Part shown: in pieces, positions 1-62,886 of the stretch
How positions within the stretch are numbered: the first letter of the stretch is position 1
Layout of the letters: each line of letters starts with the position of its first letter
Source: Eledone cirrhosa
Lineage: Eukaryota
Length of the DNA: 64,000 bases
Assembly (NCBI GenBank): GCA_964016885.1
Contig: OZ024740.1
Location: 377,456,001-377,520,000 of the forward strand
Direction of reading: 5' to 3'
Notes under the pieces: model-generated
Seen by the model: only the letters and a program-made list of their open reading frames with translations
Database searches by the model: none
Told to the model about the DNA's origin: nothing
Made by a program: the position numbers and the translations under genes

Positions 1-608
1 TGGATGCAAATAAAAAATTTCAAGGTTAATATCTCTGTAAGCTTAATGCGCTGATAAGATACGCAATGATACTTATGGAGTCAAGCATATAAATATATTT
101 TTTTCATACTCACACATATCAGTATAATCACACATACATGTGCGTATATATATAAATATACACATAACCACGAACACACAAACACACACACTCCCCCACT
201 CACATTTATATATGTGGATATAAAATCATAAGCAAATAGAAATTAAGTCACTCACATAAACACACTGGTACACACATTTCAAGATCAAGATACAGAAATT
301 AGGTGGGAGGGGGGGGGGAGGGGTCAGTATTAGGTTGTCAGACCAGACAGCCTAATATAAATGTATCTATAAATTATGAAAAATAAAAAAATAAAAACAA
401 TAAAATATATTACATATAATATAATGTACATACGCATACAGATATACATACACATACATACATGTACGCGCACATAGAGATATCTACACATACATACATA
501 CACACATACCTATACTGTCATACACACACATACATTTACACGAACATACACATACACATATAAAAAGATAAAAATACGGACACACACACGCGCAACACAT
601 ACACACAT

Positions 609-665
<57 letters not shown>

Positions 666-774
666 TATACACACACACATAGACTCATATATATATACAT
701 ACACATACATATACTTATACATAAACATATATATCCCACACTCATACCACCATGAAAACACATACAAACATCCA

Positions 775-821
<47 letters not shown>

Positions 822-1210
822 ACATACACACACATACACATATATGTATATATACATACATATATACACACATACACATATATATATACACACACACATA
901 AAATACAGACATGCACATATATATATATATATATATATATATTTCATTACTCTTATATATACACATAGTATATATACATACACAACCTCACTTATACACA
1001 TATACATATAAGTTATATTACAATAATAATAAAGAATAATATATATATATATATATATACATACATATATATATACACACATATACACATATACATACAC
1101 ATACATACATATACATACATACATACACATACATACATACACCTAAATATAAACATATATAAATACACACATACGAATAAAGACATATATTCACACATAG
1201 ACACCTATAT

Positions 1211-1246
<36 letters not shown>

Positions 1247-1333
1247 ATATACACACACATACACATATATACACATATATATATATATACACATATACAC
1301 ACACGCACACACATACAGACACACATACACACT

Positions 1334-1374
<41 letters not shown>

Positions 1375-3097
1375 ATGTGAGTGTGCGCAAATACATACAT
1401 ATATATACACACACACATACAAACACACACAAACACATACATATGCATACGTGCACACACACGCACATATATCACATAGATACGAAGATAATCATATAAA
1501 TAGAGAGACATACAAATATATACAGAACCCATATACACATACATACAAACACGCATATACATATATATACATATATACACACATATATATTCCTATATAC
1601 AAGCATACACATACACACACATATATACATATACATACACATATATATACACCACACATTCACATACACGTACATATATAATACATATATATACATATAT
1701 ATACATACATATGTATGTACAATCATATATACACACTCAATCTTACATTCATATTTACATGCTCATATATGTATTTTTATATTTAGAAATAAATACCAAA
1801 AAAACTATATAGACACCCATCTACACATATATTCATACATATACACTTACAAAAACAGATGATAATAGTATGGGGGAAAGGGGGGGGTTTGGAGAAGGGG
1901 ATCAAAGTAAATATATGTTTCAAGAAACCTATAATATTTTCCATATCTTAATTCAATGTATGTTCTTACATATTTTCAGTGCTAGGAAACACGAAATCTA
2001 TGCATCACAAAATAAAAAAGTATACCATTAATCATATGTCAACTAAACCAAAGATAGTCAACATATTGATTTCCAAGGTGTAAATTAGTTAGGTTTATAA
2101 TATTTGAAGCAGAATTATGAAGTCAAACAGTAGTAGATTATTAATTACATTATAACTAAATTAAAGTTAATAACGTTATGGTATCAATATTAGGAGATGA
2201 ATTTAGTAATAGGGAAAAGAAACCCAAATAAAAATAAAATAAAGTATTACATCGGTAGTAGCATATAAATTATATGTTAACTAAGTTAAAAATTATATAT
2301 TTATTTCAATAGTATATGTTAATTAGTATATGTTAATTAGGTATACAATACATAAAGCAGATATTGTATTTCATCAATAGCATAATATAATTATATGCAA
2401 ATAAAAATCAAAATTAATACGCATACACATACATATACATACACATACACATACATATACATATACATACACATATATATATATATATATACATATATAT
2501 ACACATACATACATATATAGTCGCATAAATATACATACAGATACACATACAATACACACATATACATATACATATAGATATACATATCTTTTTCAAAAAA
2601 TTTGCACAGAATATATTAACTAGGTATATATCCAAAAACACTTCCCATTCTATGATTACATGAAATTCTGCAATTCGTCTGTACAAGGATACTAATTTTA
2701 AGCAAATTAAAATTAAAATTAAAGTTTTAGGTTGATTAAAGCTAAAACCAAATAATAAATATATTTCCAAAATGTATATTAATTAGGTCAATAATACTAA
2801 AAATTCTTTCTCCGTCATAGGATACATGATATTATTTTGTTATATTTTATCTGTAAAAGAATTATAATAAAAAAAATTATAATAAAAGGTTAAACTAAAT
2901 TAAAAAATTATAATAAAAGGTTAAAATAAGTTAAAATTAATCTATAAATTAAATTACTGAATATATATTAGTAATATTTAAAGGTTTTTCAAAATTAATG
3001 ATTACATAATATTTTCTCATCTGTAATAAAATATTAATTAAATTAAATTTATAGGTTAACTAACATTTAAATTAAATTAAATTCTAGAATAATGTTA

Positions 3098-5539
3098 TTA
3101 ATTAGGTTTATAATATTTAAATGTTTTTTTTAGTTTATGATTACACGATATAATTAATTCCTGTCTTTTATTTAATAAGATATCCCTAGACTTCATTATT
3201 TCAAATAGTTCTTGGGAACATAATCTACATTCCTTTCTATTATTTTGATAAGGGGTGGCTCTTTTGAGCACACTCCAGGTCAAATCATATTTTATATTTT
3301 TATTTTTATAACTATTGATTTTTTCTGCTAGAGATGTTGTATTAGCCAGTGCGGCATTTTTAAAGCTATGTTTGTGGGTATTATACCTTGTCTTAAAATT
3401 GTTAGAGGTAGCTCCTATATATGAGCAAATAGAATCTTTAGTTTTAACATTACATTTATAGACTATGTTGTTAACAAGACAATTCCCTTTTAATGGGCAG
3501 TTTGTTTTGTTTCTACAGTTACATCCTTTCGTTAATTCTGTATTTGAGGAGATATTATTGTTAATTTGATGTACTGGTGGTATACTTATAGTTTTCTTAC
3601 ATTTATATGCATTATATGCACTTATATTTTGTTTTATGTTATTTGTTGTAGAATATGAGAATTTAACTGTAGACCTATTTAAGATTTGATGGTATTTGTG
3701 GTTTGGCGGGAAGTTTTTCTCAAGGATATAAAAAAATTTTTTGGCAATATTATCCTTAACTTGTAAATTAAAAGGAGCATTATACCAAGTAACCCGTCTA
3801 TTACGGTTTCTATGTTGTTTATTATTTTTATTATTTTTATATGTTGTATCATGATTTTTACTAGGAGGAATAATGTTAATGATAACACCACAACTATTTT
3901 TAGTTATATTTGTAGATTTAGGTGTTTTATCTTTTTTATTAGGAGTTTTATTATTAATATTTATTATAGTCTTATGATGAGTAGTTTTTTGAGGGTTACT
4001 ATACTTTATATTAGAAGATTTAGTATTTTGGGGTATACTGTGGGTGGCATTTAGGTGTGTACTTTTCATTTGGTGTTTGTTGGTAATATTATGCTGTATG
4101 TTTTCAGTATTTTTAGTAGAAGTTATATACTCTAATCTATTTTTGTGGCCACTTCTATCTAGAGCTTCATTATAAAAGGTCGCATTTTTATCAAATACAT
4201 CTTGGTTAGAAGAAAGGTTAGAAATTCTAAGTGATATATTATATGCAAGGTTTTTAAGGATAGATTTAGGGTGATTAGATTGTGAGTGTATGTAATGTAA
4301 GTTTTGGTTAGGTTTATGGTAAGGTTGGTATATACCCGTAGCTAAATCTAAAGTTATATCTAGGAAATTTACTACTTTACTTGTTTTTTCAAAAGTAATA
4401 TTAAGATTATAATAGTCTTTAAGGAAAGTTCTAATATGCTTTTTGTTTTTTTCGATTTCTGAAAGGCTAAGGTTGTTAGAAAGAAGAAGACAGTCATCAC
4501 GATATAAACCACCTTTGAGGTGGGGAAAAGAGGCATTTATGTTGAAAAGGAGAAAGAGGCCCACAAGATCAGTAATTTGGGCAGAATCGCTTGAACCCAT
4601 AGTAATATCAAAAAGATTACTATAAGTGTTTCTGGTCCAGTATTCATTCTGAAATTCAATAAGTGTTTGTCTAGCATGTGTAATAATGTTAATGTCATCC
4701 GAAGTTAAATTAGATCTATTTTTAGCAAATATTAATGCTTTGTTCAGGAGTATGGGTGATATAGAAGAATAATAATTATCTATATCAAACTGTAGGAAAG
4801 AAGCAGAAGATTTACACCTAATATTTTTAAACCAATTAATTACCTGGGAGGTGTTTTCCCAGAGTGGTAAAATAACGTATTTTCTTATTTGTGGGATGAC
4901 TCTATCTAAAATTTTTTTGCTAATTATTCCAATATCTGATTTGGAGGGACATATAAGTCTAATAGAAGGATTAGAGTTAAAGTTAGATTTGTGATCTTTC
5001 AGGTTGAAGTGTGGACTTCTCAATGCCAAAGGTTCAGTTCTATCTTCAATATTTAGTTTTTTTACTATGTTGTGTGTTTTGTTGTTGATGTTGGTGAGTG
5101 ACGCATTATTAGATTTTTTATAATTTTTTCTGAGTTCTTTATATATGAACTCATTATAATGTTCAATATCCATATGATACAAGTTACCAGTTTTGTCCGA
5201 GTGGACATGGATTTTTTTAGACTTTTTTAGGTCCAATAGGGTAGAATCAAGGTCCTTTTGAAAGACGGATTTATACTTTTTAAATTTGAGGTGTTTAATT
5301 AAATTAAAAAGGTCTTTCTCGAAGTCTTCAAGTAAAAAGTTGTGTGGTGGATTCTTGTAAGTGTTGAAATCATACATATATTTCCGATCTGCTTGTTTAG
5401 ATTTTCTATCAAAGTGGTAGGCTCTCCATCTAACCCTTCTGATAAAATTATTAGTTTTCTGAATCATAAGGAGTAAGAAGTCGTCCTTAGAAGGTATTGG
5501 TATGTTTTTTAAGGAGGTTCCTAAATATTGTTTTTCCAT
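3098..5539 (-). CDS. Penelope-like retroelement polyprotein (reverse transcriptase + C-terminal GIY-YIG endonuclease), probably Naiad clade; intact
   Basis: Uninterrupted ORF. The track starts at a TTG (5560); the first ATG is at 5539 (MEKQ). Motifs: SLKNIPIP, RWRA, SDKT, QFDIDNYYSSI, MGSSDS, GLYRDD, VNFLDITLDL, HSQSNHP, WYNAPF, CNCRNKTNCPLKGNCL zinc motif, IVYKC...YIGAT..FKTRY..HK, CRLCSQE. Confidence 0.93.
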   Translation of the reverse strand: MEKQYLGTSLKNIPIPSKDDFLLLMIQKTNNFIRRVRWRAYHFDRKSKQADRKYMYDFNTYKNPPHNFLLEDFEKDLFNLIKHLKFKKYKSVFQKDLDSTLLDLKKSKKIHVHSDKTGNLYHMDIEHYNEFIYKELRKNYKKSNNASLTNINNKTHNIVKKLNIEDRTEPLALRSPHFNLKDHKSNFNSNPSIRLICPSKSDIGIISKKILDRVIPQIRKYVILPLWENTSQVINWFKNIRCKSSASFLQFDIDNYYSSISPILLNKALIFAKNRSNLTSDDINIITHARQTLIEFQNEYWTRNTYSNLFDITMGSSDSAQITDLVGLFLLFNINASFPHLKGGLYRDDCLLLSNNLSLSEIEKNKKHIRTFLKDYYNLNITFEKTSKVVNFLDITLDLATGIYQPYHKPNQNLHYIHSQSNHPKSILKNLAYNISLRISNLSSNQDVFDKNATFYNEALDRSGHKNRLEYITSTKNTENIQHNITNKHQMKSTHLNATHSIPQNTKSSNIKYSNPQKTTHHKTIININNKTPNKKDKTPKSTNITKNSCGVIINIIPPSKNHDTTYKNNKNNKQHRNRNRRVTWYNAPFNLQVKDNIAKKFFYILEKNFPPNHKYHQILNRSTVKFSYSTTNNIKQNISAYNAYKCKKTISIPPVHQINNNISSNTELTKGCNCRNKTNCPLKGNCLVNNIVYKCNVKTKDSICSYIGATSNNFKTRYNTHKHSFKNAALANTTSLAEKINSYKNKNIKYDLTWSVLKRATPYQNNRKECRLCSQELFEIMKSRDILLNKRQELIISCNHKLKKTFKYYKPN

Positions 5540-5882
5540 TGTGATATGGATGATGGACAATTGAAAGAGCTCAACTAAATGTATATGGGTTTACAAAATC
5601 ATACATATATATATGTTTATACATAAATATAAAATTAATACACACATACAGTACAAAAATACGAATATTTCCGTGAAAATAGGAGCAAAATTATGTAGAT
5701 AAATCTACCAAGAGTTTACGGTAGTGTCCAATCCGTATGAAGAACTCAATGTATTCCGGATATCATGGAAAGAAGAGATGTAATGAAAATCCAATTTCGG
5801 TGAAAGATAAACGGTATACAGAGTCAAGATAAAATATTAAACAAATAATGAACAAACAATTCCTTATATTAAACAAAAAAAG

Positions 5883-6037
5883 TTCACTATTTAACGATCG
5901 TTTCTAGGGTATATATGTGTTATAATTGGTATGCATATTTAACAGATCTATGTACAAAATTATACAAAATTATACAAATTATCAAGATTAAATATACATA
6001 CCTAACTCATATATACGCCGTCTTCAGAAATAATGAA
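5883..6037 (-). ncRNA. Type I hammerhead ribozyme with very long stem II, sense to the PLE ORF
   Basis: Minus strand: TTCATTATTT-CTGAAGA-[stem II including GTATATATG/CATATATAC and GGTATGTATATTTAA/TTAAATATGCATACC]-GAAA-CGATCG-TT-AAATAGTGAA. Stem I is 10 bp; stem III is the palindrome ACGATCGT. Confidence 0.85.
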
Positions 6038-6797
6038 GTATATTTATTGATAATAACAACAATTCAAAATATCAGTTCAAAATTGACCAATGAAAACACA
6101 AAGGGTTAAAAAACAGTTTGGTGTGTGTATATACATGTAAAACCCTACACACATTTTACAATAATGTGTGTATAATTTGTATGTGCATACTAAAAAGATG
6201 GATGCAAATAAAAAATTTCAAGGTTAATATCTCTGTAAGCTTAATGCGCTGATAAGATACGCAATGATACTTATGGAGTCAAGCATATAAATATATTTTT
6301 TTCATACTCACACATATCAGTATAATCACACATACATGTGCGTATATATATAAATATACACATAACCACGAACACACAAACACACACACTCCCCCACTCA
6401 CATTTATATATGTGGATATAAAATCATAAGCAAATAGAAATTAAGTCACTCACATAAACACACTGGTACACACATTTCAAGATCAAGATACAGAAATTAG
6501 GTGGGAGGGGGGGGGAGGGGTCAGTATTAGGTTGTCAGACCAGACAGCCTAATATAAATGTATCTATAAATTATGAAAAATAAAAAAATAAAAACAATAA
6601 AATATATTACATATAATATAATGTACATACGCATACAGATATACATACACATACATACATGTACGCGCACATAGAGATATCTACACATACATACATACAC
6701 ACATACCTATACTGTCATACACACACATACATTTACACGAACATACACATACACATATAAAAAGATAAAAATACGGACACACACACGCGCAACACAT

Positions 6798-6856
<59 letters not shown>

Positions 6857-6965
6857 TATACACACACACATAGACTCATATATATATACATACACATACA
6901 TATACTTATACATAAACATATATATCCCACACTCATACCACCATGAAAACACATACAAACATCCA

Positions 6966-7010
<45 letters not shown>

Positions 7011-7399
7011 ACATACACACACATACACATATATGTATATATACATACATATATACACACATACACATATATATATACACACACACATAAAATACAGACA
7101 TGCACATATATATATATATATATATATATATTTCATTACTCTTATATATACACATAGTATATATACATACACAACCTCACTTATACACATATACATATAA
7201 GTTATATTACAATAATAATAAAGAATAATATATATATATATATATATACATACATATATATATACACACATATACACATATACATACACATACATACATA
7301 TACATACATACATACACATACATACATACACCTAAATATAAACATATATAAATACACACATACGAATAAAGACATATATTCACACATAGACACCTATAT

Positions 7400-7435
<36 letters not shown>

Positions 7436-9100
7436 ATATACACACACATACACATATATACACATATATATATATATACACATATACACACACGCACACA
7501 CATACAGACACACATACACACTCACATATATATATATATATATGTGTATGTGAGTGTGCGCAAATACATACATATATATACACACACACATACAAACACA
7601 CACAAACACATACATATGCATACGTGCACACACACGCACATATATCACATAGATACGAAGATAATCATATAAATAGAGAGACATACAAATATATACAGAA
7701 CCCATATACACATACATACAAACACGCATATACATATATATACATATATACACACATATATATTCCTATATACAAGCATACACATACACACACATATATA
7801 CATATACATACACATATATATACACCACACATTCACATACACGTACATATATAATACATATATATACATATATATACATACATATGTATGTACAATCATA
7901 TATACACACTCAATCTTACATTCATATTTACATGCTCATATATGTATTTTTATATTTAGAAATAAATACCAAAAAAACTATATAGACACCCATCTACACA
8001 TATATTCATACATATACACTTACAAAAACAGATGATAATAGTATGGGGGAAAGGGGGGGGGTTGGAGAAGGGGATCAAAGTAAATATATGTTTCAAGAAA
8101 CCTATAATATTTTCCATATCTTAATTCAATGTATGTTCTTACATATTTTCAGTGCTAGGAAACACGAAATCTATGCATCACAAAATAAAAAAGTATACCA
8201 TTAATCATATGTCAACTAAACCAAAGATAGTCAACATATTGATTTCCAAGGTGTAAATTAGTTAGGTTTATAATATTTGAAGCAGAATTATGAAGTCAAA
8301 CAGTAGTAGATTATTAATTACATTATAACTAAATTAAAGTTAATAACGTTATGGTATCAATATTAGGAGATGAATTTAGTAATAGGGAAAAGAAACCCAA
8401 ATAAAAATAAAATAAAGTATTACATCGGTAGTAGCATATAAATTATATGTTAACTAAGTTAAAAATTATATATTTATTTCAATAGTATATGTTAATTAGT
8501 ATATGTTAATTAGGTATACAATACATAAAGCAGATATTGTATTTCATCAATAGCATAATATAATTATATGCAAATAAAAATCAAAATTAATACGCATACA
8601 CATACATATACATACACATACACATACATATACATATACATACACATATATATATATATATATACATATATATACACATACATACATATATAGTCGCATA
8701 AATATACATACAGATACACATACAATACACACATATACATATACATATAGATATACATATCTTTTTCAAAAAATTTGCACAGAATATATTAACTAGGTAT
8801 ATATCCAAAAACACTTCCCATTCTATGATTACATGAAATTCTGCAATTCGTCTGTACAAGGATACTAATTTTAAGCAAATTAAAATTAAAATTAAAGTTT
8901 TAGGTTGATTAAAGCTAAAACCAAATAATAAATATATTTCCAAAATGTATATTAATTAGGTCAATAATACTAAAAATTCTTTCTCCGTCATAGGATACAT
9001 GATATTATTTTGTTATATTTTATCTGTAAAAGAATTATAATAAAAAAAATTATAATAAAAGGTTAAACTAAATTAAAAAATATATATATATGTATACATA

Positions 9101-31173: not shown

Positions 31174-32121
31174 CTAAGGCGGGTAAAATTCCCGAGATCC
31201 ATGGACGAGTTCTCTCCAGCGGTCTCTGTCCCTCATTATCGCTGCCATATCCTGCATCTCCAGCAGACCAGTGTCTGTCCTTAGGGCATCAACATATGTT
31301 AATCTTGGTCTTCCTCTTCTAGTGTGTCCATGTAGGGGCTCCCAAAGGAGCACTGAGTGCAATGTCAACTCCGGATGTCGGTGAGCATGTCCAGCCAACC
31401 TCAGTCTCCTCTGTGTCACTTTTGAGCTGACTCTTGGGATGCTCCCATACAGCTCTGAGTTTTTCATCCTCAGTGTATACTGATTAATGTTCAGAGCCAT
31501 CCTCAACATTCTCGTGTAGCACCCATCCACCATCTGAGTGAGTTTCTTGGTCAGTGTCCAAGTCTCAGACCCATACAGCAGCACAGACTCCACTACAGCA
31601 ATGAAGAGGCGGATTTTCAGGTCTCTACGAAGGTCCGACTTCCACACCGATCTCAAGCTGTGGCACGCCGCCCAGGCCTTGCTCTTCCTCTCAACCACAT
31701 CATCCTCCGTATTCCCAATCTTTGCTCCCAAATACAGGAAGTCCTCAACCAATTCCAGCGGCTTCCCGCCTACATTAGTGATCCCCTCTGGCTTCTCAAT
31801 ATTCTCTACCAGATATTTTGTTTTAGTCTCATTCATTCTCAGCCCCACACTCATCGACACAGTCTCAACCTCCCGCATCAAATCCTCTGCCTCCTTCACT
31901 GTATTTGTCACCAAAACTATGTCGTCGGCAAACTCAGCATCCGATACCTTTTTCGCCCCAACTCTCCTGCTCTGAGCCGGTGCTACAGTAAAGCCAGAGT
32001 CCTGGTGTTTTTCCAGTGCAAGGCGCATACAATAGTCCACTACGATGATAAAAAGGTAGGGAGCCAATGTATCTCCCTGGAGCACTCCAGCCAGTATCTC
32101 AAAGAACTCTGTCATCCCATT
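31174..32121 (-). pseudogene. 5'-truncated RTE-clade LINE (RT C-terminal half, open frame) inserted in (TA)n; short 3' fragment of the same family at 57200-57358
   Basis: [53 protein letters not shown]. The stop codon abuts the TA tract at both loci. Confidence 0.9.
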
Positions 32122-32124
32122 ATT

Positions 32125-33089
<965 letters not shown>

Positions 33090-41647: not shown

Positions 41648-41826
41648 GGAGCTTCCAACATAAATGGTCGCATTCTTTAAGGGTATGTCAATATTTATTT
41701 ATAAAACTGATCTATATTATATTTTATCTGATGAAAGCGCACCATAATTTGACTTGGTGTCCTTGAAATATGTATAATGAAATAAATATGGTTTTATAAA
41801 TATAGTTTCCATTTGTTAATATATTG

Positions 41827-41907
<81 letters not shown>

Positions 41908-41914
<7 letters not shown>

Positions 41915-43050
41915 CGTAAAATAAGAAAAAAAATTTTTTTTTTTTTAATTTTTAAAAAAAATTTTAACTTACTTAAATTTTCACTCCAACTAATTAGTTT
42001 CTGCAATGGGATAAAGACAGTTACGTAATCTAACTGTCGAGAATTCATTGCGTCATCAGGGAGTCTATTCTCAGCTAAGTCTCCAGGCAATGCGCGGACA
42101 CTGGCGGCTCATATAAAAATAATAATAATTCGGTAGATGGAACAGCTAGCGGGGACTGAATTCTATGCACTGAAATCCTCACTGCCTCTAGTCAAATGGC
42201 CGATTCTAAAGAATCAATCACGTGACACAGAGGCTAGTCAGTAGGAATGGGATGGTAAGATGACAGACGCCTACTAACACCCCCCAAAAAATGTTAGAAG
42301 TGGTTTTGGCAGGTTTGCTCGACAAATCAGTGATTTGGAGATAAATATAGATAATTTAATATATCAACTAACATAAGCGCACAGATGTACGCTAATGCCA
42401 GCAAATACACAGGTTATGTCATAGTACCTAGGTGGTTCAATGCAGGAGGATGCAGAACAATAATATAAAAGACGTAAAATAAGAAACATTTTTTTTTTTT
42501 TTTTTTAAGCTTTTTTTTTAAATTTTAACTTACTTAAATTTGCACTCCAACTAATTAGTTTCTGCAATGGGATAAAGACAGTTACGTAATCTAACTGTCG
42601 AGAATTCATTGCGTCATCAGGGAGTCTATTCTCAGCTAAGTCTCCAGGCAATGCGCGGACACTGGCGGCTCATATAAAAATAATAATAATTCGGTAGATG
42701 GAACAGCTAGCGGGGACTAAATTCCATGCACTGAAATCCTCACTGCCTCTAGTCAAATGGCCGATTCTAAAGAATCAATCACGTGACACAGAGGCTAGTC
42801 AGTAGGAATGGGATGGTAAGATGACAGACGCCTACTAACACCCCCCAAAAAATGTTAGAAGTGGTTTTGGCAGGTTTGCTCGACAAATCAGTGATTTGGA
42901 GATAAATATAGATAATTTAATATATCAACTAACATAAGCGCACAGATGTACGCTAATGCCAGCAAATACACAGGTTATGTCATAGTACCTAGGTGGTTCA
43001 ATGCAGGAGGATGCAGAACAATAATATAAAAGACGTAAAATAAGAAACAG

Positions 43051-43081
<31 letters not shown>

Positions 43082-44371
43082 TTTTTTAAATTTTAACTTA
43101 CTTACTTAAATTTGCACTCCAACTAATTAGTTTCTGCAATGGGATAAAGACAGTTACGTAATCTAACTGTCGAGAATTCATTGCGTCATCAGGGAGTCTA
43201 TTCTCAGCTAAGTCTCCAGGCAATGCGCGGACACTGGCGGCTCATATAAAAATAATAATAATTCGGTAGATGGAACAGCTAGCGGGGACTAAATTCCATG
43301 CACTGAAATCCTCACTGCCTCTAGTCAAATGGCCGATTCTAAAGAATCAATCACGTGACACAGAGGCTAGTCAGTAGGAATGGGATGGTAAGATGACAGA
43401 CGCCTACTAACACCCCCCAAAAAAATTTTAGAAGTGGTTTTGGCAGGTTTGCTCGACAAATCAGTGATTTGGAGATAAATATAGATAATTTAATATATCA
43501 ACTAACATAAGCGCACAGATGTACGCTAATGCCAGCAAATACACAGGTTATGTCATAGTACCTAGTTGGTTCAATGCAGGAGGATGCAGAACAATAATAT
43601 AAAAGACGTAAAATAAGTAAATTTTTTTTTTTTTTTTTTTTTTAAGTTTTTTTAAAAAATTTTAACTTTCTTACTTAAATTTTTTTAAAAAACTTTAATT
43701 TTTTTAAAAAACTATTTTAAAAAAAAAAAAAAATTTACTTAATTTTTTTTAAAAAATTTTAACTTACTTAAATTTTTTTTAAAAACTTACTTAAATTTAT
43801 TTTAAAAACTTTTTAAAAAAAAAAAAAATTTACTTAAAAAAACTTACTTAAATTTACTTAAAAAAACTTACTTAAATTTACTTAAAAAAATTTAAATTTT
43901 TTTTTTTTTTTTTTTTTTTAAATTTACTTAAAAAAACTTACTTAAATTTACTTAAAAAACTTACTTACTTAAATTTACTTAAAAAAACTTACTTAAATTT
44001 ACTTAAAAAAACTTACTTAAATTTACTTAAAAAAACTTACTTAAATTTACTTAAAAAAACTTACTTAAATTTTTTTTAAAAACTTTTTAAAAAAAGAAAA
44101 AAAATTTACTTACTTAAATTTTTTTTTTAAATTTTAACTTACTTAAATTTTTTTTTAAAAATTAAATTAGTTGGAGTGAAAATTTAAGTAAGTAAGTTAA
44201 AATTTTTTTTAAAAACTTTAAAAGAAAAAAAAAAAATTTCTTATTTTACGTCTTTTATATTATTGTTCTGCATCCTCCTGCATTGAACCACCTGGGTACT
44301 ATGACATAACCTGTGTATTTGCTGGCATTAGCGTACATCTGTGCGCTTATGTTAGTTGATATATTAAATTA

Positions 44372-44376
<5 letters not shown>
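41908..44376 (-). mobile_element. Retrozyme-like tandem array: three ~560-570 bp units, a partial fourth, a scrambled junction and an inverted partial copy
   Basis: Units start AAAAGACGTAAAATAAG near 41908, 42467, 43028 and 43601. The inverted copy is at 44166-44376. TA-flanked, with no real ORF. Confidence 0.88.
41983..42064 (-). ncRNA. Type I HHR, one per unit (also 42544-42625 and 43116-43197)
   Basis: ACTCC-CTGATGA-CGCAATG..GACAGTTA gattacg TAACTGTC..CATTGCA-GAAA-CTAATTAG-TT-GGAGT; stem III is palindromic. Confidence 0.9.
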
Positions 44377-44412
<36 letters not shown>

Positions 44413-44423
44413 TTAATATAGAT

Positions 44424-44476
44424 GAGATTCTACAGGACTAGAACTGTTTCATTCTTTAGAAATCATCAGGAATCTC
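44424..44476 (-). ncRNA. Type I HHR, family E, within a palindrome at 44410-44527 (decayed copy at 16498-16550)
   Basis: GAGATTC-CTGATGA-TTTC taaa GAAT-GAAA-CAG ttctagtc CTG-TA-GAATCTC; stem I is 7 bp. Confidence 0.82.
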
Positions 44477-44625
44477 TAAAGAATGAAACAGTTCTAGTCC
44501 TGTAGAATCTCATCTATATTAAAACTTTTATACTCTGCAATGTATTGAGTACCTTACTTACTGTGGTTACCTCCGATTCAACCCGGAATAACGTATATGT
44601 ATATATATATATATACATATATATA

Positions 44626-44914: not shown

Positions 44915-45579
44915 CGAAGGAAATGTGGTAAGGAACCAGGTGGACCATAACGCACCAAAGTACTCAATACTTAGGGTAGTAGAGTGGGTAATAGGAACAA
45001 GTAAGGCCCCGACGGCTGAGCTCAAGCCGTTTCGACGGCTAATTCTGGACTGAATTAGCCGTCGAAACGGCTTGAGCTCAGCCGTCGGGGTCTTACTTGT
45101 TCCTATATATATATATATAAATATCGTTATACTTGGGGAGGGTCATATTTGTGTAATAATATTGCCAGAATTAATAACAGAACACACTCACTGTTTGGTT
45201 GGTTTTCGCTTCTGTATCTTTTATATCGGTTAATTTAATTTATTCGGTCCTCAATGTTACCATTGACTGACCAACGGTCAAAAATACAAATATAATAGTC
45301 TAACACAAATATATAGTCTAACAAAGTTCTTTCGTTGCACATCTGCATTCCTGGTCAGATATATATTCAATTAAGGTTAATAGTATGAAATAGATAGTGC
45401 AGGTCATTCTTAAATTGAGGAATTTATGTGGAGTGGTGATACTGAAATTTATGGTTAGAGTAGAAAATTTACAAATAAAAAGACTTATCTAGGTTGGCTT
45501 GCACGTACACTCAAACCCACCTCCACAGACACACACACACACATCCACTCATACAAAATGTGGGGTGGTAATACTTAAA

Positions 45580-46239: not shown

Positions 46240-47192
46240 TAAAATCAGGTTAAATAAAACGTGGTTTAGATGACTCGGTTTAGATGACTCCTAACCAGTA
46301 GAGGATCCGGTGGACCATCCACCATAAGGACAACAAACTATGGGTGGTTGTTGTTGTCCATTGGTCATTGGTACGGGGTGTAGGGGACCTACAGGGGGGG
46401 GGGGGGGCGTTGTGGGAGGCCGTAACTGGTGTTTATCCATATAGCTTCAGGAAAGTTCCCGTCCTTAGGTGTCTGCAGGTACCGATAAGTCGACCCTTCT
46501 GTTTAATAGCTTGGTTCCGCCATGAAGAATCTCGAGTGTCTCACTAAGACAGAGGTTGGTTGCAAATACCAGACCCACCTCTGTCTGGGGGAACCTTTCT
46601 AACCACGGACCAGACCAGAGAGTGCGGGGTCTTTTCAAGTTTGAGCTTCCAGATCAATTCAGAAAGGGCCGTACATTTCCTCTTATCTATTCTGTTAAAG
46701 GGATGGCGATTGTTATACCACCGATCTTTGCAGCTCGTCGCTGTGGATCCTATGTAGTGGTGCTCCGAGTTAGAGGTTGTGACCTTGCACCTGTAGACTA
46801 CGTTTTTCGTTATGCATTCATTACTAAGGGGGTATAGTGATGGGTCTCTGCAATTACATGACTTCTTAAGCCCCACCACATGTACCGCGTGGTTACCATC
46901 ACTCGGAGTTGGCTGGGTAGCCTCCGCAATCAGCACAGGGTCGTTGGGTTCCGGTGTGCTAGTTGGGCCTGTCCGGGTTCCGTTGCGTCCCGCGTGATGG
47001 TTCTGATGGGGGGCTCCGGGGTTTACGGTGGTATTAGAGGCAGTGAGCCTATTCCTATTTATGCCAGCTATGTGCTGGGCTACGGAGCGTGTGGTTGAGT
47101 AGGATAGTTTCACCGTGTGCCTGTTGAATATTTTATGGTTCTTGTGGGCCCTAGGGAAACATTTATCCAGTACTCTAAAGAATATTCTAGCC
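46240..47192 (-). pseudogene. Naiad-like PLE 3' fragment (linker, zinc motif, GIY-YIG, 3' UTR), TA-flanked
   Basis: KIFNRHTVKLSYST, SCNCRDP..PL..EC, VVYRC..YIGST. A 4 bp CAAC duplication near 46555 frameshifts CNLCLSE. Confidence 0.88.
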
Positions 47193-47209
47193 ATATATAT
47201 ATATATATA

Positions 47210-48225
47210 TAGCAAATTACCCATGGAGCTTCTATCATTATTCAGAGACTAACAGCCAGTAAAGGAGCTTCGCAGGTACTTCTGAATTGCAACTGAATTT
47301 GGTTGTCTTATCGTATCTCACCGACACCTACGAGCCACCAAGCCTAGAAGCCCATCTATAGAACAAGTCTCTATACATGGAATAAATTACATCAGGAGAG
47401 TTGGGAAGGAACTCCTTGAAAAATACTCACTGTATAATAACAAAAGATTCACACTCAGGGAAATTGTCATGGAATAACGCAACGAGTCCATGGATGAAAA
47501 GCTGCATACTTATTATCAAAGTATCGTGCATGACCATGTTGCTAGAAAGCTTCAAATTCAGAGTAATATAGATAAGCATAGTAGTCTATATTGAACCAAC
47601 AACCGGCATATTAGCTCTCACTTTAAAGGGTATGCTCATACAATCCAAGAACAGGAAACAACAGATGCAGACTCTGCGGAATAATCATTGAAGATGTCAT
47701 CACTATTTTATTTACTTATGAGGCATGAGGCAGTGGCCAAACTACTATACAATGCAATCCGTAAAACGGATAATCTTTAGAATAGACATATAAAAAGTTA
47801 CTGTGGTGTGGAGGACATATGCATACATAATATAATAGATTTCTAGTGGAATGTTCCAGTCAAAACCCCAATAAGATACAAACCTAACAGTCAAGACAGT
47901 GACATGGGACAGAGAAATAGCATGCACACTAGTGGAAATCAGCTGTCCAGCAGATGCCAATATAATGCTAATGATTAGTGAAAAGTGGAACATTTATGTT
48001 GAACTAATGAGAAATCTGCAAGTACTACACTTGATTATACCTCTATATTTGTACCTGTGATTATTGGGGCTCTCGGATGTGTTGCTAATAGTCTCGGTAT
48101 AAATCTTAAGAAGCAGCTGTACTTCAGAAATCCAGAAAGGGAACCACTAGTTAGGAAGTTATAAATACAATCCACTAATGGAACTGTAAAAATATGTAAA
48201 ACATTTCAGAAATTTAGCATGTAAT
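47210..48225 (+). pseudogene. Decayed Dong/R4-clade LINE 3' portion
   Basis: Remnants of HDHVAR, NKP(N)L...LVEISCP and VPVIIGALG in broken frames. Confidence 0.65.
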
Positions 48226-60808: not shown

Positions 60809-62886
60809 GCATTTATCTTGCTTTATGAGTTATCACCAGGTCACAACCAGTGACCTCAAGAGACAACAAGGTCCGCCATGTTCAAGAAAGAACATACATA
60901 CACACACATGCATCTTTAGGTGTTTAGACTTGTGATGTACTTATATTGACAGAATCTTCCTTAGTATATGGGCAGTTCCCATTAGTACTATCTTTTGTAT
61001 TTCTCCTATACGCGGGTTTCCTGGGATTTGCGATAAGTAGTCATTAGACCCCTTAGGTATCATTCCTAGAGCGCCTACAACCACTGGTATTGTTTTAGTT
61101 CTCAATTTCCACATTTTTCCAATTTCTATCTCCAGATCCTTATACTTACTCAATTTTTCAAATGTTTTTATAGATACATTCTTGTCTATTGGAACGGACA
61201 TATCAATTAGCAAGCATACCCTCGTTTTAAAGTCCTTCAGTATTATATCAGGTCTATTTGCATCTATTTTTCGGTCTGTTTGGATGCTATCCCTTAGATA
61301 TGTACATAATCCAATTGTTGCAGTTTTCAACGCAATGTCTAACTGGATTAACCCACGTCCTCCTTCTTTCCTAGGGAGATATATTCTATCTGTATCTGCC
61401 TTAGGGTGATGCATTCTGTGCATGGTTAAGAATTTTCGAATTTTTGTATCGAGCCTACGGATCTCTGTGCTTGACCAGTTGATGACATTGTAACTGTAGG
61501 TTACTACTGGTATAGCAAGCGTGTATATGGCTTCGATCCTATTCCTTGCCTTCAATTCCGTTCTTAAGATTGCTCTAACTCTGCGGTAACATTCCTTCCT
61601 TATCCTTTCCCTCATTGTCGAGTGCTTGATTCCGTCTCCTTCACAAACACCTAGATATTTGTAAGTTTCCTCTTGATCAAGTTCTCTTATCACATTCCCC
61701 CGATCAAGATTAATGTCTGAACTTTTCAGCAGCTTTCCTCTGGTGAACGTTGCTTTGGCGCATTTATCTAGTCCAAATTCCATTTTAATGTCATCACTAA
61801 ACTGCTCCACAGTGGATAATAGCCCTTCCAATTGTTCATCATTTTCTGCAAATAGTTTCAGGTCATCCATGTAGAACAAGTGATTAATAGTTCACCCTGA
61901 AAAATTCCACAATTAATATTAACTTCTCCAGCTTCCAGTGATTTTTTTTCACTATTCAAAAGGAGTGTCATTTTCCATGTCTTCATACTGAATGACAAGA
62001 ACCTCCTCACAACGGGAGATATTTTTAAAATCTCTAAACATTTTTCAATCCAACTGTGTGGCAAACTATCGAATGCTTTTTTATAATCTATCCAAGCAAT
62101 TGATGGATTTTTGTGTCTATTATGACAATCTTCCAGTATCATTTTGTTAACCAAAAGCTGATCCTTACAGCCATATGAGCCTCGTTTACACCCTTTCTGC
62201 TCATTGGGAAATAGGTCATTTGTTATCAGGTGGTCATATGTATATTCAGTTAGGACTGATGTTAAAATGTTATACATTATGGTCAAGCAAGTTATAGGTC
62301 TGTAATTTTTAGGATTGTTTGTCTCATCATTCTTCGGAAGCAGGAATGTAATGCCACTAACCAGCCATGATGGTATCTTTTCTGGCTCCTGAACTGTTTT
62401 ATTGTAAAGTTGGGCTAACAGCTCATGATACTCTGTGAAGGCATTTATCCAAAAATTTGGTATTTTGTCTTTTCCTGGGGATTTCCATTTGCTGGTTTTT
62501 CTAAGAGCCAAACGCAACTGTTCAACTATTATATTTTCCCATATTTGTTCCTCAAGGTGAGCTGTATCTTTCATTTGTCTGTCTCTCCATGGGGCATGTA
62601 TATTATGAACTTTTTCTTCGGCCCAGATCTTTTCCTAGAATTCTTGCACTTCCTCCTTGTGTGGTATTGATTTAGCAGTTATTGTTGACTTGCCAATTTT
62701 TCTGTAGAAGTTTCTTTGATTGTTTTTGAACATATTATTGTCCTTATAGAATCTAGATCGTTTTTCAAAGCGCCTTATACGTGCAGCTTTGGCCGACACT
62801 TTTTGCTTGATTATTTCTATCAGCATGTCTATGTCACTTGTTGATTTTATACTGTATTTTCTTTTCAATTTTCTAAGTTTAGTTTG

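What the first reader, a model, noticed from the sequence alone, without database searches (positions are those of the whole stretch)
43670..44170. De novo ~24 bp repeat generated next to the ribozyme-cleaved 5' end, resembling telomerase-like reiteration
Seen: the fourth unit stops at ...TTACTTAAAT, a few bases short of the HHR cut site. It is followed by ~500 bp built only from reshuffled pieces of the preceding ~60 nt, including about eight copies of AATTTACTTAAAAAAACTTACTTA. The sequence then resumes inverted from the palindromic stem III (AATTAGTTGGAGT). Established: PLE RTs are the closest retroelement relatives of telomerase RT. Inference: the RT repeatedly re-primed on the template's 5'-terminal segment before folding back. 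Alternative: a sequencing or consensus artefact at a hairpin.
Basis: partly seen in the sequence, partly recalled or inferred. Interest (0 to 1): 0.72.

Follow-up and report, generated by a model that had tools for sequence, protein, structure and literature searches.

The report
Patchwork repeat at retrozyme insertion joint
A 24-base repeat found nowhere else in this genome assembly sits in a 480-base patchwork at the joint between the two back-to-back arms of a hammerhead-ribozyme mobile element; its pieces match both strands of both arm ends, so it was likely written by repeated DNA-templated re-priming while the joint was being closed, not by telomerase-style copying of the RNA alone.

Summary
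The 24-mer is real: 7 exact copies, found only here in the assembly, and recovered as a perfect 54-nt contig in 3 of 3 same-sample runs. The rest of the filler was not read-tested.

It lies in a ~480-bp filler at the inner joint of a two-armed ~560-bp hammerhead retrozyme in (TA)n. The inverted arm is likely a second target-primed cDNA, not a fold-back: in 24 of 24 two-armed copies the arms start at the two fixed outer sites. The filler alternates strand 23 times, uses both arms, and copies a rare variant of the last unit. Re-priming on RNA alone cannot make that; DNA-templated end joining (Pol theta-type, or the RT) is favoured.

Arm ends are about 3-fold enriched at the predicted ribozyme cut. 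Fourteen other copies repeat the same terminal segment at their joints. Of 6 reiterated ends that reach the cut, 5 break there, versus 3,439 ordinary read-throughs. The scan has already noted two-armed retrozymes and junction stutters on other DNA of this genome. Verdict: an extreme variant of a known kind, with a testable telomerase-like side reading.

The parts
41819..41909 (.). (TA)n target, left flank
41910..43683 (-). Direct arm of a ~560-bp hammerhead retrozyme (RNA sense = minus strand, cDNA = plus strand). Starts at family start site A, crosses the predicted cut three times (after 41987, 42548, 43120), stops 6 nt before the fourth
41982..42064 (-). Type I hammerhead-like motif, copy 1 (CUGAUGA core, GAAA, palindromic helix III, UU|GGAGU, 5-bp helix I)
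   Evidence: sequence; no Rfam hammerhead hit
42543..42625 (-). Hammerhead-like motif, copy 2
43115..43197 (-). Hammerhead-like motif, copy 3
43602..43683 (+). End of the direct arm: A/T-run segment that differs at nearly every pass; carries the sporadic TAAGTAAA variant; one source of the filler
43684..44164 (.). Junction filler, ~480 bp patchwork of both strands of both arm ends plus self-copies
43827..44069 (+). De novo 24-mer array (7 exact copies + 1 near copy, interrupted by a T23 block)
44165..44373 (+). Inverted arm (RNA sense = plus strand here); outer end at family start site B, inner end 8 nt beyond the predicted cut
44374..44409 (.). (TA)n target, right flank

Best explanation
The ~480-bp stretch is a patchwork of short pieces matching both strands of the two arm ends of a hammerhead retrozyme insertion, likely written by repeated DNA-templated, microhomology-guided re-priming while the two cDNA ends were being joined, most likely by host Pol theta-type end joining. 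Steps: (1) shown: the element sits in (TA)n with two back-to-back arms whose outer ends are at the two fixed start sites; inferred: a Penelope-type RT primed one cDNA from each end of a break in the self-complementary (TA)n. (2) Shown: the left arm stops in the A/T-rich segment just before ribozyme helix I and the right arm 8 nt past the cut; inferred: these A/T-rich 3' ends could not pair stably. (3) Shown: the filler alternates between cDNA-sense and antisense pieces of both arms, with 4-6 nt overlaps inside the 24-mer; inferred: cycles of snap-back, cross-priming and release. (4) Shown: later filler is best parsed as copies of earlier filler; inferred: once the 24-mer existed it was re-copied from itself, possibly with later slippage. 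The enzyme is not identified: about 0.5 Pol theta-type, 0.35 the RT itself. The repeat is a by-product with no evident function.
For: Both strands: 110 cDNA-sense-only and 96 antisense-only 11-mers; the cDNA-sense of the last unit alone covers 62% at k=11, both strands of both arms cover 98% (shuffles max 82%). 23 sense switches, with antisense blocks at the left end and sense blocks at the right, opposite to an all-RNA model with one switch. The sporadic TAAGTAAA variant (24 places vs at least 3,439 units; one unit only in 9 of 9 multi-unit loci) appears in antisense 11 times; pieces found only in the inverted arm also occur. Two independent arms: 24 of 24 two-armed loci start one arm at site A and the other at site B; the window's inverted arm differs from units 3-4. 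Joint stutters also occur far from the cut: L169 has a 9-mer x4, and a second hammerhead family has stutters about 200 nt from its ribozyme, one of them a two-strand patchwork (L075). Pol theta switches between cis, trans and untemplated extension (PMC4912351, abstract and section 8); snap-back occurs at R2 5' junctions (PMC11371274, passages).
Against: Length: Pol theta insertions had a median of 7 bp, occasionally over 25 bp (PMC4912351 section 8); 480 bp is far outside that. In the 15 of 24 two-armed joints with both ends in complex sequence, filler was 2 nt or less. The A/T segment differs at nearly every pass, and the CTTA count is mixed in 7 of 25 multi-pass loci, so the RT itself likely slips here. 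Three reiterated ends join the other arm at the cut with only 0-1 nt microhomology (L099, L121, L092; read by eye), which fits extension on RNA better than cross-priming. Low complexity inflates all k-mer matches. Only the 24-mer core is read-verified.
Confidence: 0.6

Rival explanations
1. The Penelope-type RT itself reiterates. Near the ribozyme-defined 5' boundary it realigns the cDNA's TTTT end to an upstream A-run of the RNA (an A-B-A' template just 3' of helix I or of the cleaved end, as in telomerase and DRT10), adding the terminal segment again. At this locus it also switched onto its own cDNAs.
For: Arm ends exactly at the cut: 19 of 24 deviants at +0, and at least 20 among the 34 inspected of 55 deviants at +1, versus 9 of 35 at -1 and 6 of 30 inspected (of 31) at a control site 32 nt further on. 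Eight loci have both arms ending within about 2 nt of the cut. Fourteen other copies repeat the terminal segment at the joint; 5 of 6 that reach CACTCC break within 0-4 nt against 3,439 read-throughs. (GA)n or (GATA)n extras at 26 of 91 site-B starts. A PLE RT extends both strands in vitro (PMC11167929, parts 1-2 of 4). The A-B-A' and boundary rule comes from PMC12632851 and PMC4993307 (passages).
Against: The search pattern could find only direct repeats of one motif. Cross-priming by the other DNA end, or slippage in gap filling, gives the same products. Reiteration is rare (15 loci including the window, among roughly 1,800 estimated from 53 loci per first 100 matches), at most 3 extra copies elsewhere, and imprecise. 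One of 6 reads through (L205). The same stutter occurs far from any cut (L169; second family). Near-symmetric joints occur away from the cut too (L137, L142). In vitro, uncleaved RNA was the dominant substrate (PMC11167929). The window's 24-mer is not collinear with the RNA.
Confidence: 0.3
2. A shorter joint patchwork held one or two 24-mers, and the array grew afterwards by ordinary replication slippage or unequal exchange. This can add to the best explanation rather than replace it.
For: Runs of exact 24-mers parse as self-copies. The window is full of expanded simple repeats.
Against: The runs are interleaved with a T22 piece from the direct arm and a 17-nt piece matching the inverted arm. 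The non-array ~240 bp still needs templated switching.
Confidence: 0.07
3. Sequencing or consensus artefact at a hairpin.
For: The filler lies between inverted arms and is A/T-only; the confirming runs are one sample of unknown library type; about 370 bp of it was skipped by the read tool.
Against: Perfect cyclic 24-mer contig in 3 of 3 same-sample runs at a depth compatible with about 5 copies at one locus. Shorter versions of the same stutter occur at 14 other joints.
Confidence: 0.03

Closest known systems
Metazoan non-LTR retrozymes (PMC7229834, passages; bioRxiv 10.64898/2026.07.22.740005, part 1 of 5)
   Same: Protein-free tandem units with a type I hammerhead-like motif, thousands of copies, low GC.
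   Different: Unit ~560 nt (the paper reports ~170-400 nt RNAs). Cleavage, circular RNA and expression were not tested here. The passages read do not describe joint fillers.
EN+ Penelope-like element insertions: tandem plus inverted 5' copy, optional tail, two RT start sites (PMC8557442 and PMC3846280, passages; PMC11167929, parts 1-2 of 4)
   Same: (TA)n targets, head-to-head arms, two fixed starts with the tail on one arm only, minimal hammerhead with palindromic helix III (PMC4209133, passages).
   Different: Tail is about 122 nt rather than 30-40. No ORF; partner RT not identified. PMC3846280 explains inverted joints by self-priming; the 24 of 24 A/B ends here fit two target-primed arms better.
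Pol theta templated insertions, and snap-back at retrotransposon 5' junctions (PMC4912351 abstract and section 8; PMC9962433, PMC11371274, PMC11331408, passages); L1 twin priming (PMC11702581, passages)
   Same: Short pieces copied in cis and in trans from next to the joint, direct and inverted, linked by microhomology.
   Different: About 480 bp and about 30 segments rather than a few bases, and it produces a new perfect minisatellite. Both arms start at fixed element sites, unlike L1 twin priming.
Telomerase and DRT10 repeat addition (PMC4993307, PMC12632851, passages); LINE 3'-end template slippage (PMC3747384, one passage)
   Same: An A-B-A' segment just 3' of a helix or RNA 5' end; short reiterations of that segment at 14 other joints; stutter at the start site.
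   Different: The window's 24-mer is mixed-strand and not collinear with the RNA. The boundary is crossed 3,439 times. Reiteration is rare and imprecise.

Membership tests
Metazoan non-LTR retrozyme | Tandem non-coding units, each with a type I hammerhead motif | tested here: met
   Three full motifs in the window; core nearly invariant in 143 passes (the regex itself required part of the core); no element ORF. No Rfam hammerhead hit; an extra A precedes GAAA, so it is a variant.
Metazoan non-LTR retrozyme | Self-cleavage at the predicted site | tested here: inconclusive
   Indirect only: about 3x excess of arm ends at the cut, and 8 loci with both arms ending there. The MFE fold does not give the active core. 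No assay.
Metazoan non-LTR retrozyme | Expressed as linear or circular monomer RNA | not tested
   No run on record as RNA was laid; the two RNA-labelled holders had share 0.06-0.07.
Penelope-type insertion footprint | Tandem plus inverted arm, tail on one arm, (TA)n target | tested here: met
   24 of 24 two-armed loci among 40 examined have one arm at site A and one at site B.
Penelope-type insertion footprint | Sequence link to an autonomous PLE with RT and GIY-YIG | tested here: inconclusive
   One PLE-like family checked (14 loci): only 13-18 nt chance-level matches. Its 847-aa ORF had no Pfam or PDB hit; the PLE label rests on recalled motifs and a weak GIY-YIG hit for P0001, E 0.22.
Telomerase-type repeat addition | Repeat is the collinear complement of one RNA template segment | tested here: not met
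   The 24-mer parses into three pieces, two of them antisense to the cDNA. Met only by the short reiterations at other loci.
Telomerase-type repeat addition | Alignment region (A-B-A') next to a 5' template boundary | tested here: inconclusive
   Present in sequence, and 5 of 6 reiterated ends break at the cut, but the site is read through 3,439 times.
Telomerase-type repeat addition | Processive synthesis by the RT on RNA | not testable with these tools
   Needs an in vitro assay.
Pol theta templated insertion | Insert copied from joint-flanking DNA in direct and inverted sense with microhomology | tested here: met
Pol theta templated insertion | Genetic dependence on POLQ | not testable with these tools
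   No mutant data; the POLQ gene was not searched for in this genome.

The most novel reading that the evidence does not exclude
A Penelope-type RT performs telomerase-like repeat addition in vivo. It realigns on an A-B-A' RNA segment bounded by the hammerhead cut or helix I (the 14 short reiterations), stutters (GA)n and (GATA)n at its start site, and here switched among RNA and both cDNAs for about 480 nt. Retroelement RTs would then be a direct source of new micro- and minisatellites, and show a latent telomerase activity with a ribozyme as template boundary.
Probability: 0.25. Interest if true: 0.75.

Novelty: new variant of a known kind. Interest (0 to 1): 0.42.

Why it matters
It captures the birth of a perfect minisatellite in what is likely a single insertion event, and shows how far joint-filling synthesis can run. 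The family gives genomic evidence on two open points of PLE biology: whether the hammerhead cut ever bounds the template in vivo (yes, in a minority of arms) and how the inverted arm forms (two target-primed arms). It also yields a defined RNA substrate to test whether a telomerase-related RT can add repeats. The locus itself is probably a functionless accident.

Tried and rejected
Fold-back from helix III: rejected (fixed outer ends; sequence differences from units 3-4; because the A/T segment varies per pass, the differences alone are weak).

RNA-only parse of the filler: rejected.

The cut as the dominant stop: rejected. There are 3,439 read-throughs, and by eye 10 of 64 arm ends in the 40-locus set fall in the last ~75 nt, about what length predicts.

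Rfam: no hammerhead at gathering or at E up to 5.

Reads: RAD-seq run X21 laid nothing. X4 gave one partial contig running into (TA)n, probably another copy.

Partner RT: one PLE-like family compared, no link.

Pattern hits that are unrelated satellites or non-family sequence (L078-L081, L083-L087, L110, the C1715 array) were dropped; L076 and L077 were not inspected; 602 unlisted matches, presumed mostly the C1715 array, were not seen.

Literature: no paper held at least 5 of reiterative / reverse transcriptase / retrotransposon / telomerase-like / slippage / Penelope. Listings showed no report of such fillers in PLEs or retrozymes. PMC13282606 (passages) has no mention of ribozymes. The library lacks most subscription journals, and no supplements were read; those of PMC11167929 and PMC11371274 may hold junction sequences that bear on this.

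Look-up of earlier scan findings by sequence gave nothing.

Full report
Observation. The window holds, between two (TA)n tracts, a direct array of a ~560-bp unit (41910-43683), about 480 bp of A/T-rich filler (43684-44164) and an inverted arm (44165-44373). The 24-mer is present 7 times exactly and once with one A missing; the exact copies are unique to this place in a 3.0-Gb assembly. In each of three public runs of one sample there is a single 54-nt contig matching the tandem perfectly, depth 60.7, 40.4 and 26.1. 54 is 24+30, the cyclic contig expected at k=31. Divided by a mean multiplicity of 5.3 this gives about 5-11 per copy, similar to the lowest-depth contigs in the same tables. The tool skipped most of the remaining filler, the library type is not on record, and the sample may be the assembly's own, so only the array core is read-verified.

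The element. The minus strand of each unit carries CUGAUGA, a long helix II, GAAA, a palindromic helix III and UU|GGAGU closing a 5-bp helix I; the core is nearly invariant in 143 passes. It fits the minimal PLE-type hammerheads described in PMC4209133 (passages), though Rfam does not detect it. The plus strand is therefore the cDNA strand, and a cleaved template would end at ...CACTCC. The assembly has 3,439 exact passes across that site. I fetched 40 of the 53 loci behind the first 100 listed matches: 37 of the first 38 plus three later ones chosen because both orientations showed. Twenty-four are two-armed. In 24 of 24, one arm starts at site A and the other at site B about 122 nt away, each beside a simple repeat, with the cDNA 3' ends meeting at variable inner positions. 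The window has the same layout. This matches the PLE footprint (PMC8557442, passages) and the finding that a PLE protein nicks and extends both strands from two internal start sites (PMC11167929, parts 1-2 of 4). I infer two target-primed cDNAs, not a fold-back. The window's inverted arm also differs from units 3-4 and ends 8 nt beyond the cut. The partner RT was not found: one PLE-like family showed no link.

The filler. 98% is covered by 11-mers from the two arm ends on both strands, against at most 82% in 300 run-shuffled controls and 62% for the cDNA sense of the last unit alone. There are 110 sense-only and 96 antisense-only 11-mers, and sense changes 23 times. If both growing ends had copied only RNA, the left part would be all sense and the right part all antisense; the ends show the reverse. 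The last unit carries a variant seen at 24 places genome-wide and in one unit only at 9 of 9 multi-unit loci among the 10 inspected, so it is likely a per-pass RT error present in that cDNA only. Its complement occurs 11 times in the filler. Pieces matching only the inverted arm are present too. The 24-mer itself is two antisense pieces and one sense piece joined by 4-6 nt overlaps, and later copies parse as self-copies (32 segments in all). DNA-templated re-priming is thus required; low complexity weakens any single match but not the pattern.

How usual is this? In the 15 two-armed joints of the 40-locus set with both ends in complex sequence, filler is 2 nt or less; in the other 9 an end lies in or next to the A/T segment and the gap is at most 65 nt. 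One locus of 40 (L169) has a new 9-mer x4 far from the cut. The window is an extreme outlier. A genome-wide pattern found 13 other copies of this family that repeat the terminal segment at their joint (L065, L082, L088, L089, L092, L095-L102), L121 makes 14, and L205 repeats it and reads on. A second hammerhead family shows similar stutters about 200 nt from its ribozyme, one a two-strand patchwork (9 loci viewed). Stutter is therefore a property of joints in general.

Does the cut matter? Of 24 deviants at the first base after the cut, 19 are arm ends (script 18, plus L115 by eye). Of 55 at the next base, 34 were inspected and 20 are ends; 20 lie in one uninspected array and 1 was not seen. 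At the base before the cut, 9 of 35 are ends (script 11, minus L253 and L256 by eye); at a control base 32 nt on, 6 of 30 inspected. The Poisson chance of 19 or more is 3e-5 for mean 6.2 and 2e-3 for mean 9. Eight loci have both arms ending within about 2 nt of the cut, though near-symmetric joints also occur elsewhere (L137, L142). Of six reiterated ends that go on to reach CACTCC, five break within 0-4 nt. So cleaved RNA, or helix I, likely bounds a minority of cDNAs, and the short reiterations cluster there. The segment has the A-B-A' form beside a boundary that telomerase and DRT10 use (PMC4993307, PMC12632851, passages), and three of these joints have only 0-1 nt microhomology. But cross-priming by the other DNA end, or slippage in gap filling, makes the same direct repeats, and the pattern could see only direct repeats.

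Mechanism and ranking. Best (0.6): iterative DNA-templated re-priming at a hard-to-close joint, most likely Pol theta-type, which is known to switch between cis, trans and untemplated extension (PMC4912351, abstract and section 8; PMC9962433, passages) and resembles snap-back at R2 junctions (PMC11371274, PMC11331408, passages). The length argues against a routine Pol theta event. Rival (0.3): the RT reiterates on RNA and switches onto its cDNAs. Later expansion as the main cause 0.07; artefact 0.03.

Novelty. The element type, footprint and templated joint insertions are known, and this scan has noted two-armed retrozymes and junction stutters elsewhere in the genome (my reading was written before those look-ups). 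I found no paper on such fillers in PLEs or retrozymes (partial library, no supplements read). The host is called a cephalopod in earlier scan notes; I did not test that. Verdict: a real, extreme variant of a known kind, interest 0.42, with a 0.25 chance of a telomerase-like RT activity that is directly testable.

Noticed in passing
Site-B starts in L005, L023, L053, L055, L089, L105, L119, L150, L160, L161, L062, L064, L140, L146 and others: 26 of 91 site-B starts (8 of 28 in the 40-locus set) carry extra (GA)n up to n=28, or (GATA)n, between the target (TA)n and the element. This may be RT stutter at initiation creating new microsatellites; pre-existing compound repeats are not excluded.
   Followed up: partly
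L169 (G000:C1:68323500-68326000): A very short inverted arm reads (GA)18 then a 9-mer four times, a cDNA-sense reiteration right at the start site.
   Followed up: partly
L066, L075, L090, L091, L103, L104, L278-L280: A second, unrelated-looking hammerhead family shares the motif ACTTACTTAAAT and often stutters at it at its joints; the shared motif may be an RT pause or recognition signal.
   Followed up: partly
window 43602-43683 and all copies: The ~60-nt A/U-run segment just 3' of the ribozyme cut differs at nearly every pass, even within one arm, while the rest of the unit is 97-100% identical.
   Followed up: partly
L127/L128, L133/L134, L112/L175, L176, L189, L197/L260, L132, L261: Perfect or near-perfect palindromic joints where both arms end at the predicted ribozyme cut.
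   Followed up: partly
G000:C2:312.63-312.67 Mb, C12:24.48-24.53 Mb, C28:8.79-8.82 Mb: Long tandem arrays of this retrozyme (tens of kb), candidate source loci or satellites.
   Followed up: no
window 46544-47248 (-); L303:1237-3780: Fragment of an abundant Penelope-like ORF (weak GIY-YIG hit, E 0.22; 59,414 first-look candidates); one copy has an 847-aa open frame and a hammerhead-like motif nearby.
   Followed up: partly
window 41715-41790, 44410-44530, 44975-45105: Further small elements nested in the same (TA)n cluster: another hammerhead-like motif and two long perfect inverted repeats.
   Followed up: no
window 31174-32451 (-), 60941-62634 (-): Degraded LINE-type RT fragments (Pfam RVT_1).
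   Followed up: no
window 1-9000 (ORF 3098-5590, -): A ~6.2-kb direct duplication (repeat tables match at that offset) and an 830-aa open frame without Pfam match.
   Followed up: no
G000:C1715: An 18-bp satellite containing CTTACTTAAA fills much of this small contig; relation to the retrozyme untested.
   Followed up: no
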